Shown: piece after piece, positions 33,001-45,000 of the stretch | How the letters are laid out: each line of letters begins with the position of its first letter | How positions within the stretch are numbered: position 1 is the first letter of the stretch | Source: an uncultured candidate division Zixibacteria bacterium | Lineage (GTDB): Bacteria; Zixibacteria; MSB-5A5; RBG-16-43-9 | Length of the DNA: 64,000 nucleotides | NCBI GenBank assembly: GCA_963713865.1 | Contig: OY970208.1 | Location: 1,440,001 to 1,504,000 of the forward strand | Direction of reading: 5' to 3' | Made by a program: the position numbers

Positions 33001-36000
33001 GTACAGTTTATTCAAATGCAAATCTTGAGAAACTTAAAAGAGACGACGCTGGATAGGTCTTTTCAGAATTATAAGGGTGAACTTTTAGAATATCTTCAAG
33101 CTGAAGGGGAGGGTATTCCAAAATATGAAGTCCTGGAGGAAAGTGGGCCGGATCATCAAAAAATGTTTACCATCGGGGTATATTCAAAAGGAAGACGTCT
33201 GGGAACAGGGAAGGGAGCAAGTAAAAAAGAAGCAGAACAGAATGCAGCCAAGATGGCATTAGAGGAGTTCGAAAAAAATTTAAATTAAATATGGAATTCT
33301 GGTTTAGTAAAGAACAAAAGGAGCTTAAAGCTCTTAGCAGAGAAATAGCCCTGGGGAAAATTCAACCTAAAAGGGAATATTATGATGAAACTGAAGATTT
33401 CCCCTGGGAGATAGTGAAGGATTTATCTTCAGCCAAGCTTTTTGAGGTTTATATTCCTGAGGATTATGGTGGTAAAGGCGGGGGAGTAACTGAGCTTTGT
33501 ATTGTTACTGAAGAGCTATCGAGGGTATGTGGTGGAACTGCCTTAGCCTATGCTGGAACAGCTTTAGGTTCATATCCTATCTTGCTTTTTGGAAATGAAG
33601 AGCAGAAGAAAAAATATTTGCCCAGTATAGCTAAAGGGGAGAAATTAGCCGCTTTCGGTTTGACAGAAGCCAATGCCGGAAGCGATGTTTCAGCTATTCA
33701 AACTCAGGCAAAACCTATGGAAGATGGTTATATCCTGAATGGAACCAAGCAGTGGATTACCAATGGAGGAGAAGCTGAGATTTATACCATAATTGCGGTT
33801 ACTGATAAGACAAAAGGTGCCAGAGGTGCCAGCGCCTATATAATAGAAAAAGGGTTTAAAGGTTTTTCCTTTGGAAAAAAAGAGAAGAAGATGGGGATAA
33901 GAGCCTCTGCCACCAGGGAGCTAATTTTTAATGATTGCTTCGTGCCCAAGGAAAACCTCTTAGGGAAAGAAGGGACAGGTTTTATCGTGGCAATGAAGAC
34001 CTTTGATAAAACCAGACCCGGCGTGGCAGCTCAAGCTCTGGGGATTGCTCAGGGGGCTTTAGATGAAGCTTTAGAATATTCCAAAAAAAGGGAACAGTTT
34101 GGTAAAAGCATCTCCTCTTTTCAGGATATACAATTCAAATTAGCAGATATGGCTACTCAGATAGAAGCGGCAAGAGCTTTAATCTATTCAGTGGCAAAAC
34201 TTATTGATTCTGGAGTGGAAAAGGTCTCAAAAGTATCTTCTATGGCTAAAGTCTTTTCCTCAGATGTAGCAGTTAAAGTGACCAGTATGGCTTTACAGAT
34301 CTTCGGAGGATATGGTTATCTTAGGAACTATCCAGTAGAGAAGATGATGCGCGATGCCAAGATCACCCAGATTTATGAAGGGACGAATGAGGTCCAGAGG
34401 AATATAATCGCATTGAACTTGATTAAGGAGATCGCCACTCGGAAATAGAAAAAAGAAAAAAAATAATATCCGATGTCGAATATCGAAAGACGAAAAATTT
34501 TGTAGGGACAGGCCTGCGTGTCTACCCTAATGATTTTTATAAGAACATGGTAGGGGCAATTTATGGATTACCCCTTCAATTTAATTATTATGAAAGAACA
34601 GACTTGGAGATTTATTGATACTGGCAAAAATGGTCCTTATTTCAATATGGCGGTAGATGAAGTCCTTTTGCACTCAGTTCAGAAAGGGTGTCCACCAGTT
34701 TTACGTCTTTATCAATGGAATCCAGCTACTATTTCGATAGGCTATTTTCAGGAAGTAGAAAAGACTGTGGGTTTAGATAAATGTAATAAATCGGGGATTA
34801 AACTTGTCCGGAGAATAACTGGTGGAAGAGCAGTTCTACATAATGAAGAGCTGACCTATAGCTTTTGCGGTTCCTCAAAAGCTTTTCCAGAGTTCGGTCA
34901 AAATGTTACAGAGACATATCAGATGATTTCTGGAGCCATTTTATTATCTCTAAAGATTTTAGGGATTGAAGCTCAATGGGTTAAACCTTCAAGGGAAGGG
35001 AGAAATATGAAAAACTCATTCGCTGTAAAGGGAGATAAATTATCTGAAAAAAATTTTTTCGACCTGCCCTGTTTTTCCAGTTTTTCCAGATACGAGATCA
35101 GCTTTCAGGGTAAAAAGCTTATAGGGAGTGCCCAGAGAAGGTTTGGTGACTTTTTTCTTCAACACGGCTCAATTTTATTAAAGAAAGAAGATTTGAGATT
35201 AACTTATTTTCTACCTAAGGATAATTCCTTTAAGAAAATATATGTAGAGGAGAACTCTACCAGCCTCGGAGAAATAAGAGGTGGAGAGGTTTCGTATCTC
35301 GAAATCATTCGATCATTAAAACAAGGATTTGGTAGATTTTTTAAAAAAGATTTTGACGAAAGTTTATTAACCCCGGATGAACTCAAAAATACTCAAAGAC
35401 TTATAGAAGAGAAATATTCCAAGGACGAGTGGAACTTAAAATTGTAAAATTTAGCGCAATTTAAATCTAAAATAGCGTAATATTCTGCGTTTAGTTAAGT
35501 CTCCATATAACAAATAGTTAAATATTCTTAATCAGCGTTATCAAAAGATTTATCTTCACCTTTTGCGAAACAAATACTTAAATTAAAAAATAGGATAAGA
35601 ATTTCTAAACTTGGTTGATTTAATTTGTTGTTAAATAAGAACTTAAAAATGATGGATTCTGAGCCTGAAATCTATAATATGGGCATATTTTTTGTGTATA
35701 TAATTGTGTGGTATTTCCTCCTTCTTTCATATTAAAACCTCCTAGGACCCCTGCTTACCAAGAAGGTAAGCAGGGGTGAAAAATGAAAGAAAGGAAAAAT
35801 TTAAAAAGATTTAGTTTAACCCTTTATTATGAATTATGAAGGGGGAAATAAATAATTTATATTATGTTCAAAAAAAATCTTGACAATTTTAATAAGCTCT
35901 TATAATATGTAATTTTAGATTATGGATTGAACTTAAGAAAATGGAAACTTTAACCAGTAAGGAGGAAAGAGATGAAAGTTTTTAATGGGTTTAAGGTATT

Positions 36001-42000: not shown

Positions 42001-45000
42001 AATAGCTTAGCCAAGCTAAAGGAGAGGAGTTAGATATGAGAAGATTACCTATTATAATTTTGATGCTTTTCATCCTCCCGTCTTTGGCCTGGGGACAGAG
42101 GAAAACCGGAACAGCAGGTGCCCAGTTTTTAGAGTTAGGAGTCTCAGCTCGAGCTGCGGGGATGGGGGAAGCTTTTTTGGCTGTGGCAGATGATGCCTCT
42201 GCACTTTATTATAATCCTTCAGGCTTAACTCAAATAGGTCAGAAAGAGCTCGTACTGAGTCATGTGGATTATATTGCCGGGATCACTTACGATTTCGGAG
42301 GTATATCTATCCCTACCAGTAGATTAGGAGGGGTGGTAGGTTTAGGGATTTATTTTTTGAATTCCGGGGATATTCCAAATATAACTACTAGCACCACGGA
42401 TCCGTCGAAGCCAGATCAAACTTACCAGGCAAAAGAATATGCACTTGCCCTAACCTACGCCCGAAGCTTGACTGACCGTTTCTCTATTGGGACCACCTTG
42501 AAATTTATAGATGAGCTCTACGAGGAGGAACGCGCTAATGGTTGGGCTGTAGATATCGGCACTATGTATAAGACCGACTTTAAGAATTTCAGAATCGGCG
42601 TGATGATGAGTAACTTTGGGTCCGATCTCAAATTCATTAAGGAAGCATATCCTTTACCAATTAATTTTAAATTCGGCATTTCGATGGAGCCTGTTACTTT
42701 CGGAGAACACAAGGCTGTGATCGGTTTAGAACTTTGCCATCCCAGTGATAATTTGGAGAAGTTCAATTCCGGGGTGGAATATTGGTACCGGGATATTCTG
42801 GCCCTGAGGGTAGGAAATCAGTTTGGATACGATTCCGGGGATTTTAGCTTTGGAGCAGGTGTGAAGTTACCCTTTTATAACAAGACCAAGCTGAGAGTGG
42901 ATTATGGTTATCACGATTTCGGATTTTTGAGCGAGGTGCATAGAGTTACTCTAAATCTTAGTTTTTAATTGAGCCCTTAACATTTTAAAAAGGAGTTTAT
43001 CAAGATGAAGAGATGGACGGGTTTAACCTTTTTGCTTCTGGTTTTCTTGTTTTTCTCTGCTTGTAGTAAGCTTAGTAAAAAGGGGACTGCTCCCTCAAAC
43101 GTACCCCCAGAGGTCTTTATAGTTAATATTCCTACAGATTCAACCCAGTTTAGTAGCCTGGATACGCTCTACTGGTACGGATTTGATCAGGATGGGTATA
43201 TCACTAATTATCAATATCTGGTAATCGAGGATACGGTAATTGTTGATACGGTAACTCACGATACGATCATTACTATACCTAAAGATTCTGATGGATATAT
43301 TTTGTCTTCTTTTGTACAAACGATAGAAAGTATGAGTCCTGAAAATTGGAATGATAGTTACTTATCTAGTACCTTAAAGATAGATAGATCTTATATCCAT
43401 GCGGTCGATTCAGCCGGAACCTTTGATAAAGTTATGTTTTTCGCCTCTCCGGATACCTCGGCGGTTGTTCCTCAGTATTTCTTCGTAAGAGCTGTGGATA
43501 ATGAGGGGGCTGTTTCCAAGATCTGGAAACCTGATTCAGAAAAAGGAAGTAATTTTCGATTCTTTAAAAGAACTAATACTCCACCGAATACTTCAATTAA
43601 ATATGATACTACAATAGTCGAGTATTGTTTACCTGAGACGACAATTGATTGGGGAGGAATAAGGATCGGCTGGTCCGGCATTGACCCGGATTATAAGAAA
43701 AATCCTCCCTTGACCTATTCTTGGAAGCTTTATGGTCCGTATGCCTCAAAACCTCCGAAAGATATAGATACAACCAAAGATCTCTACTACTACTCCTGGG
43801 ATGGCATCACTAACTCTCCTTGGGTGGATAGCACTTCCCGGCTTTTAGTCAATCTGATTAATGGTTCAGTTGGGGGGGAAGATATAGGCTATGGCTGGTA
43901 TCAGTTCAGGGTCCAGGCAAGGGATGATGCCTTTGTGCCTGACCCGACTCCTGCGATTGCTACATTCAAGATCATAAAACCACCTTTCCTCTTTTCAAAG
44001 TATGACGAGAAAAGTGTGCTTTTAGTGGATGTTACAAACGGCGGAGGATTATATTATCCACATAGAGATTCATTGCGGGCGTTCTATATGGGATTCCTGC
44101 AAGAGCTCGAAGACTCAACTATAATTCAAAGATTTTCTTTTACCACGCTAAATCCTCCTCCGGAAACTCTTCTCTCTCAGTATAAATTAGTTATTTACAT
44201 AAATGAGGGCAGATTTTCTGCAATCCAGGGAAGGTATAATTTTCCTTCAACCGAGAGAGACACCGGCTTCATTCAGATTGAAAGATATCTCAGAGTAGGT
44301 GGTAGGGTCTGGATGATCGGGTATAATAACTTCGGGTTATTAGATGATCTGTGTAACCCTCAGTATATGCCCATCGTACCCGGAAACCAGAGCTATGGTT
44401 ATACAGAAACAGCAGTAAGAGTGGCTAACTATTTCTTTGGAGTAGTTGGATATTTTAATCCAGCTATGGGAGGATGCATTGATAGAACTGAGGAGATGAT
44501 TGCAGCTGAACCATATGAAACTCACCCTGAGCTACCGCTATTAGAAGTTGACAGTGTGAAATTAAAAGTTCTTCCCGGTGCTACTGACAACGGCTATTTC
44601 TATGGCATTCAGACATCAGGTGTGTCCTTAAAAGGAATTCCCAGGGCTGGTTTTGAGAGGATCTGGAATTCTAATTATAATGAACGGCTTTATACCTTTA
44701 TATCTTACAAAGGCACAGCCTCACAGTTACACGGAACGGCTTGCGCCTCCAGAGCCTATAGCCTTAATCCCTTGACCTATTATGACGAAAACGGACAACC
44801 CATCTTACAGTGGCGAACTGCAGAGTTCTGCTTCCCGGCTTTTGCTATGAAAAAGGAACCGATGCAAAGAATGATGGAAAAGATGGTGAGATGGTTTTTA
44901 GATGAACAGCCCTATCTTCCTTGATTTGTTTTGAAAAGTAGTTCCTTTTTTTCTTAAAAGAGACCAGGTTTTATCCTGGTCTCTTTTTATTTAGAGGGAT

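What a model noticed while it worked through the whole genome (the two positions that open the first line are those of the whole stretch)
35972..42968. Type IX secretion without the GldKLMN motor, with 11 PorV-like barrels and a second CTD class paired to its own barrel
SprA (309702), PorU, about 40 CTD cargo and 11 PorV-like barrels are present, but GldK/L/M/N are not found in this closed contig. Seven cargo end in a distinct G-K/R-x-A/V/G-V/I-I/L-K/R tail and five of them lie next to a PorV-like gene, two as TonB-dependent receptor-cargo-PorV triads (1475972-1482968, 2330727-2337263), whereas none of the 38 KKM-type cargo does.
Evidence so far: Tables list Sov, PorU, PorV family, no Gld/PorKLMN; GldM, GldN, GldL not found in 5 of 5 genomes and no FGE-sulfatase (GldK fold) domain in this genome, where the control rang (111-114); Pfam scan of 162 unannotated proteins at E 0.003 gave no Gld hit (50, 51). 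CTD classes and neighbours (157, 159, 191); receptor-cargo order kept in 4 of 9 related loci (158, 159). No paper on T9SS in Zixibacteria (109, 110).
(Added by a program. Inside this text positions count along the whole contig: contig position 1,440,001 is position 1 of the stretch shown here. "Call 12" and the like, gene names such as g00115 and contig names such as C1 are that model's own, and its searches are not shown. The text may have been shortened before it was handed on; [...] marks where a part breaks off. The agent that wrote the report below was given it as the finding of a first reader that could run no searches.)

Follow-up and report, generated by a model that had tools for sequence, protein, structure and literature searches.

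The report
Type IX secretion lacking known motor
These uncultured bacteria keep the whole outer-membrane half of a protein export machine but lack the motor that powers it in studied species, and one core part carries an unexpected TonB-type domain, so the machine must run in a way not yet described.

Summary
The receptor-cargo-PorV triad is real and is a four-gene operon: a lipoprotein follows in 31 of 34 related loci. The motor absence now has working controls. SprA and SprE occur in 151 of 151 genomes of the phylum; GldM and GldN in 0 of 151, GldK in none over cut-off, GldL only as coiled-coil noise (controls 84-86, 127). A second phylum gives SprA 31 of 31, GldM 0 of 31. The 'second CTD class' is weaker: ten divergent tails, not shown to be one clade, including PorU and PorZ themselves; cargo paired with its own barrel is the known PorZ/PorQ and type B/SprF principle. 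Eight barrels pass the PorV-family cut-off, not eleven. The power source is unresolved; a Ton/Tol-type motor is my pick (0.4), and some motor-less genomes lack the TonB domain. New variant of a known system.

The parts
35880..35908 (+). sigma-70-like promoter match upstream of the operon
   Evidence: 10 of 12 consensus match; such matches are as frequent in shuffles (24 found, 20.6 expected), so position is the only support
35972..36286 (+). TonB-dependent receptor, N-terminal piece (signal peptide and CarboxypepD_reg-like extension)
   Evidence: PF13715 E 1.3e-14; one reading frame with the next piece in 3 of 3 relatives
36278..36278 (+). extra base that splits the receptor gene; probable assembly error
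   Evidence: left out in 4 of 4 runs and 3 of 3 same-family genomes
36270..39341 (+). TonB-dependent receptor, plug and barrel
   Evidence: PF07715 E 4e-10; TIGR01786 E 2.5e-20, under its cut-off
39360..42005 (+). type IX cargo: beta-supersandwich body, further beta domains, divergent CTD
   Evidence: model pLDDT 84; best fold matches are N-terminal domains of GH15/GH94/GH116 enzymes, Z 19.8-16.3, rmsd 2.9-4.5; 2156 homologues among 7999 candidates
41676..42002 (+). CTD of the cargo, PorZ-like, ending GKFVIIK
   Evidence: matches PorZ 5m11 residues 684-776, Z 12.0, rmsd 2.4, 90 aligned; NF052228 E 1.2e-4, TIGR04183 16.4 bits against cut-off 23
42036..42968 (+). PorV/PorQ-family barrel, inferred cognate carrier and anchor of the cargo
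   Evidence: NF033709 212 bits; duplicates with the cargo in 10 loci of the form T-C-V-C-V-L
43005..44924 (+). conserved lipoprotein, fourth gene of the operon, no family
   Evidence: lipobox pattern; no Pfam or NCBIfam hit; follows the last barrel in 31 of 34 loci
19140..19826 (-). ordinary KKM-type CTD cargo (3' piece)
21742..24039 (-). ordinary KKM-type CTD cargo
54562..57540 (+). ordinary KKM-type CTD cargo

Best explanation
A type IX secretion system reduced to its outer-membrane half: SprA pore, SprE, Skp, PorV, PorU, PorZ, PorQ-like barrels, and no GldKLMN chain (shown by sequence search; about 0.85). Cargo reaches the periplasm by Sec, its CTD enters SprA and binds the loops of a barrel, a step that needs no energy in F. 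johnsoniae (literature). The 36 KKM cargo ride the general PorV and are cleaved by PorU (inferred). Divergent-tail cargo ride a barrel encoded next to them and stay on it uncleaved, as PorZ does on PorQ (inferred; about 0.7). In the window this puts a large, probably non-catalytic binding protein on the cell surface beside its TonB-dependent receptor and a lipoprotein: an uptake unit like SusCD but with a type IX-delivered lid (inferred; about 0.6). Release from SprA, the step that needs GldLM in F. johnsoniae, is most likely driven here by a Ton/Tol-type proton motor (ExbB-ExbD-TonB), with the TonB domain on SprE and the insertion in PorV as the coupling or docking parts (inferred, not shown; about 0.4). 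The confidence given is for the whole chain.
For: Absence with controls; controls 70, 84-86, 127. SprA 151 of 151 and 31 of 31. Only two MotA/TolQ/ExbB channels in this genome, in exbB-exbD-exbD-tonB and tolQRAB-pal clusters. SprE identity: NF052312 E 9.5e-34, best Foldseek hit SprE 8gl8_I, profile hits SprE at E 3.5e-16 and four TonB chains at positions 588-668. TonB-type tail in 48 of 50 loci, 2 of 2 in a third group and 16 of 21 closed frames in the second phylum. The C-terminal domain of P. gingivalis PorW binds PorN (PMC8754138, passages); release needs the motor (PMC10994853, sections 8, 9, 12). Operon order and co-duplication.
Against: A TonB domain on an outer-membrane lipoprotein has no inner-membrane anchor and is not itself energised. 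5 of 21 closed SprE frames in the second phylum lack it although SprA is present and GldM not found; only 80 of 133 full-length representatives carry it. The PorV insertion is missing in 5 of 5 genomes of other phyla. The SprE C-terminus is dispensable in F. johnsoniae (PMC10994853). No motor gene lies next to sprA or sprE. SprE (117 of 250 bits), PorZ (231 of 260) and PorQ (192 of 220) stay under their curated cut-offs. Secretion, anchoring and the substrate are not shown.
Confidence: 0.4

Rival explanations
1. No motor at all: barrel-cargo complexes leave SprA by thermal motion, made one-way by PorU cleavage and LPS attachment or by binding to partners; the TonB domain of SprE is a static clamp for cell wall, cargo or PorV.
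For: Substrate loading needs no energy (PMC10994853). The TonB domain cannot be energised directly and is missing in some motor-less genomes. PorV insertion has a LysM-like repeat (E 7.1e-5), which suggests tethering rather than pulling.
Against: In F. johnsoniae cargo stays trapped on the same SprA-SprE-PorV core without the motor (PMC10994853); cargo here reaches 1936 residues.
Confidence: 0.3
2. A motor exists but is unrecognisable: a GldLM/GldKN relative beyond profile reach, or an unrelated inner-membrane motor.
For: Gld families are divergent even within Bacteroidota (lowest pairwise identity 15-18% for L, M, N); my profiles come only from loci that match one GldM motif. No proteome-wide fold search was possible.
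Against: No hit above reversed-sequence background in six frames; no GldK-fold match at all in this genome or its family; an anatomy scan gave one GldL-shaped protein, not followed by a GldM-shaped one; no porG-like gene between bamA and skp; SprA, SprE, PorU, PorV are all easily found.
Confidence: 0.22
3. The barrel in the operon is not the cargo's carrier but a FadL-type transporter or a partner of the receptor or lipoprotein; the tail difference is family drift.
For: 5 of 30 top PorV-family loci have a receptor-like gene, not a cargo, directly upstream; some loci have two cargo before one barrel, or a cargo with no barrel beside it (L037, L038, L052; L002, L022); 4 of 10 divergent-tail cargo have no barrel nearby.
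Against: Cargo and barrel duplicate together in 10 loci; in 9 compared, barrels are 99-100% and CTDs 78-99% identical while cargo bodies are 58-67%; 14 of 30 top loci have this cargo family upstream and none a KKM cargo.
Confidence: 0.15

Closest known systems
Bacteroidota type IX secretion system (F. johnsoniae, P. gingivalis)
   Same: SprA, SprE/PorW, Skp beside bamA, PorV next to PorU, PorZ, PorQ-like barrel, many type A-like CTD cargo
   Different: GldK, L, M, N not found; no porG at the bamA locus; SprE ends in a TonB domain; PorV has a 530-residue propeller/LysM insertion
PorZ-PorQ and PorU-PorV uncleaved pairs
   Same: CTD fold closest to PorZ's; PorV/PorQ-family barrel; inferred retention
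   Different: principle extended to several cargo, two of them in receptor operons, with the barrel gene directly downstream
Type B CTD cargo with PorP/SprF shuttles
   Same: cognate barrel encoded directly downstream; inferred anchoring
   Different: tails do not meet TIGR04131; the window barrel is PorV/PorQ family, not PorP/SprF
SusC/SusD uptake units
   Same: receptor with N-terminal extension, co-encoded lipoprotein and binding-type surface protein
   Different: lipoprotein has no SusD hit; the accessory protein is a type IX cargo with its own barrel
TonB
   Same: C-terminal domain after a Pro/Thr-rich linker
   Different: fused to a TPR lipoprotein instead of an inner-membrane helix

Membership tests
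Type IX secretion system (Bacteroidota type) | SprA/Sov translocon | tested here: met
   TIGR04189 573 bits, cut-off 200; 149 of 151 over cut-off
Type IX secretion system (Bacteroidota type) | SprE/PorW lipoprotein | tested here: met
   best fold match is SprE; NF052312 E 9.5e-34 though under cut-off
Type IX secretion system (Bacteroidota type) | PorU sortase next to PorV | tested here: met
   NF033707 583 bits, split by a frameshift; PorV-family gene directly after
Type IX secretion system (Bacteroidota type) | PorZ and PorQ | tested here: inconclusive
   full-length matches just under cut-off: 231 of 260 and 192 of 220 bits
Type IX secretion system (Bacteroidota type) | GldL/GldM motor | tested here: not met
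   controls 84, 85
Type IX secretion system (Bacteroidota type) | GldK/GldN ring or track | tested here: not met
   control 86
Type IX secretion system (Bacteroidota type) | PorG | tested here: inconclusive
   no such gene at the bamA-skp locus; no profile search run
Type IX secretion system (Bacteroidota type) | Plug, PorD, SprT, PorE | not tested
   no search run
Type IX secretion system (Bacteroidota type) | CTD-dependent, proton-driven export | not testable with these tools
   needs cells
Type B CTD / PorP-SprF pairs | TIGR04131 / CHU_C tail | tested here: not met
   no TIGR04131 match over cut-off in the genome; window cargo has no such hit; one other cargo (contig 237997) just reaches CHU_C, 27.3 of 27 bits
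Type B CTD / PorP-SprF pairs | barrel of the PorP/SprF family | tested here: not met
   window barrel shows no PorP/SprF hit at E 0.01; an orphan barrel (contig 130512) passes Pfam PF11751 but not TIGR03519
Type B CTD / PorP-SprF pairs | barrel gene directly downstream of the cargo | tested here: met
Type B CTD / PorP-SprF pairs | CTD left uncleaved, bound to the barrel | not testable with these tools
   needs proteomics
SusC/SusD | SusD-family lipoprotein | tested here: not met
   no Pfam, NCBIfam or PDB sequence match for 43005-44924; not folded
TonB | TonB C-terminal domain | tested here: met
   PF03544 37.7 bits, cut-off 24.6; TonB chains matched
TonB | inner-membrane helix that couples to ExbBD | tested here: not met
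   N-terminus is a lipoprotein signal with invariant Cys followed by TPR repeats

The most novel reading that the evidence does not exclude
This is the older form of type IX secretion: pore, carriers and sortase existed across FCB phyla before the gliding motor, were powered by a Ton-type motor acting through SprE's TonB domain, and Bacteroidota later replaced that link with GldKLMN. That would reverse the published proposal that the system arose as part of the gliding machinery.
Probability: 0.25. Interest if true: 0.9.

Novelty: new variant of a known kind. Interest (0 to 1): 0.74.

Why it matters
GldLM and GldKN are treated as essential core parts, and release from the pore needs them in F. 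johnsoniae (PMC10994853). A 2025 paper infers that type IX secretion evolved as part of the gliding machinery (PMC12635249, passages). At least two whole phyla with the pore but without that chain challenge both views, explain why tools that require the Gld genes report the system only in Bacteroidetes (PMC4793230, passages), and make a direct test possible: what releases cargo when there is no Gld motor. The SprE-TonB fusion and the PorV insertion name the parts to test. The receptor-cargo-barrel-lipoprotein operon adds a way to build a surface uptake complex.

Tried and rejected
Complex prediction of SprE's TonB domain with the PorV insertion and a KKM-type CTD: no verdict, score 0.00, controls not folded; not evidence either way. 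GldM control on the first P. distasonis record did not ring because that record holds sprA, not gldM; a second record did. Motif scan of viral contigs for gldM: 0 hits. GldL matches in 27 of 151 genomes rejected: at most 24.3 bits, all from model position 59 or later, none over the N-terminal membrane core. GldK matches in 40 of 151 rejected as generic FGE-fold proteins: at most 98 of 350 bits, patchy. Cargo: no PDB sequence match, Atlas neighbours unnamed; an enzyme reading is disfavoured because only the non-catalytic supersandwich of those enzymes aligns, but not excluded. Strict PorV model at E 1e-30 hit 4 of 101 genomes because the insertion splits the match. Tree of tails does not give one clade. 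RNA library X16 covers 23 of 30 bins of the operon, but contigs cannot show transcription. Naming SprE relatives gave taxa for 3 of 20 clusters. Nine paper searches gave no paper on a motor-less system or an SprE-TonB fusion among the listings and the 14 papers opened; Extended Data Table 2 of PMC12611786 and all supplements were not seen.
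Full report
The window. Four co-directional genes lie at 35972-44924: a TonB-dependent receptor (PF13715, PF07715), an 881-residue protein ending GKFVIIK, a PorV/PorQ-family barrel (NF033709 212 bits, cut-off 90) and a lipoprotein with no family. The receptor is split by one extra base at 36278, absent from 4 of 4 runs and 3 of 3 same-family genomes. Named homologues of the cargo are Zixibacteria. The genome is one contig, 94% complete.

The operon is conserved. Among 71 loci holding the cargo family, a receptor lies upstream in 47 of 57 with room, a barrel is present in 37 of 44, both in 33 of 39. Architectures are receptor-cargo-barrel-lipoprotein in 18 loci and receptor-cargo-barrel-cargo-barrel-lipoprotein in 10; the lipoprotein follows the last barrel in 31 of 34. 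Exceptions exist: two cargo before a barrel (L037, L038, L052) and cargo with no barrel beside it (L002, L022). In 9 duplicated loci the barrels are 99-100% identical (one on 59 residues only), the CTDs 78-99% and the cargo bodies 58-67%: tail and barrel travel as a unit while the body diversifies. Starting from barrels instead, 14 of the 30 best PorV-family loci have this cargo family upstream, 5 a receptor-like gene, 11 no call, and none a KKM cargo. The cargo model (pLDDT 84) matches the beta-supersandwich of GH15/GH94/GH116 enzymes (Z up to 19.8) without their catalytic barrel, and its tail matches the PorZ CTD (Z 12.0, rmsd 2.4).

The 'second class'. I find 46 CTD cargo: 36 share an NPFN motif and a KKM-like end, 10 do not. 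Six of the 10 lie within 300 bases of a PorV-like gene, none of the 36. But the 10 include PorU and PorZ, each sits on a long branch, and they are not recovered as a clade. No tail in the genome meets the type B model. Retention of PorZ on PorQ and PorU on PorV, and type B cargo with the shuttle gene downstream, are in print (PMC10202324 and PMC12618676, passages). So this part is a known principle carried by PorV/PorQ-family barrels. Eight genes pass the family cut-off; two more are weak and four are FadL/BamG-like.

The motor. I built GldK, L, M, N profiles from 39, 44, 48 and 41 proteins of 80 metagenome loci, checked on 16 proteins. On 10,187 six-frame pieces of this genome the best E-values were 7.1, 0.018, 0.21 and 0.17, against 5.1, 0.019, 0.096 and 2.6 on reversed sequence; spiked P. 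distasonis proteins scored 325-646 bits. Across 151 genomes of the phylum SprA and SprE are in all, GldM and GldN in none, GldL only as weak coiled-coil matches in 27, GldK only as sub-cut-off FGE-fold matches in 40 and not in this genome. The M, L and N searches rang on a P. distasonis record. In a second, unnamed phylum SprA is in 31 of 31 and GldM in 0 of 31; only GldM was tested there. No porG-like gene stands at the bamA-skp locus. These are samples, kin are not independent, and a fold-level search was not possible.

What stands in its place. The genome has two MotA/TolQ/ExbB channels, in an exbB-exbD-exbD-tonB cluster and a tol-pal cluster. The SprE/PorW homologue (contig 696098-698110) ends in a disordered Pro/Thr linker and a TonB C-terminal domain. 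My profile finds that domain in 48 of 50 loci: the 30 best plus 20 picked because their match stopped short; the misses are a contig end and a frameshift. Pfam put 2 of 6 re-tested divergent ones over its cut-off, 3 under and missed 1. It is also in 2 of 2 loci of a third group and 16 of 21 closed frames of the second phylum (15 over cut-off). It is not universal: 5 of those 21 lack it, as do 53 of 133 full-length representatives, including clusters named Latescibacterota and Bacteroidota. [quoted passage not shown] The PorV beside porU is 896 residues long, with about 530 residues of propeller and LysM-like repeats inserted after the NPAG motif; a long form is in 17 of 17 genomes of the phylum and in 0 of 5 from other phyla. 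Its periplasmic position is inferred from FadL topology as recalled.

How it most likely works. Shown: the parts list, the absences, the gene order. From literature: loading onto the pore needs no energy and release needs the motor (PMC10994853). Inferred: KKM cargo use the general PorV and PorU; divergent cargo stay on their own barrel; the window operon builds a surface uptake unit; release is driven by a Ton/Tol-type motor (0.4), or is passive (0.3), or uses an unrecognised motor (about 0.2). The weak point of my pick is that a TonB domain on an outer-membrane lipoprotein is not energised by itself.

Against what is known. SprA in most FCB phyla is noted in PMC12611786 (passages and section 5, part 1; table not seen), and possible T9SS outside Bacteroidota in PMC11285876 and PMC6851124 (passages). 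Nine searches and the 14 papers opened showed no account of a Gld-less system or the SprE-TonB fusion. Term searches only, with nothing relevant found: PMC5445135, PMC10515386, PMC8542988; passages: PMC11205867, PMC12204202, PMC4793230, PMC12635249. From memory, older subscription papers may mention partial systems in Rhodothermus or Ignavibacterium; I could not check this, and it would lower the novelty of the bare absence, not of the two fusions. Verdict: new variant of a known system, interest 0.74.

Noticed in passing
L074:6101-8110 (contig 696098-698110, -): SprE/PorW fused to a TonB C-terminal domain, conserved across the phylum and in part of two others.
   Followed up: yes
L075:10239-12926 (contig 1615239-1617929, +): Main PorV with a 530-residue propeller/LysM-like insertion, in 17 of 17 genomes of the phylum.
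   Followed up: partly
L081:6085-7485 (contig 572085-573488, +): PorV-like barrel fused to a C-terminal CTD-like Ig domain (weak type B match).
   Followed up: no
L080:7713-9995 (contig 239713-241995, +): PorV/PorQ-like barrel gene after a divergent-tail cargo is interrupted by a 433-residue ORF that recurs at contig 699997 and looks like a transposase (recalled, untested).
   Followed up: no
L075:6364-10165 (contig 1611364-1615165, +): porU is split by a frameshift in this assembly; not checked against reads.
   Followed up: no
L089:4750-5199 (contig 1176747-1177199, -): Stand-alone 150-residue exported protein with a TonB C-terminal domain and a Cys after its signal region; a second apparently non-energised TonB domain.
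   Followed up: no
L327-L329, L332, L333: PorV-family barrels directly after a receptor-like gene, a different operon order.
   Followed up: no
L005, L011, L012, L014, L019, L020, L025, L029: Tandem barrel copies 99-100% identical while cargo bodies are about 60% identical, as gene conversion or repeated tandem duplication would give.
   Followed up: partly
L086:5732-7063 and L087:4625-6037: Two FadL-type barrels whose best match is BamG, under cut-off.
   Followed up: no
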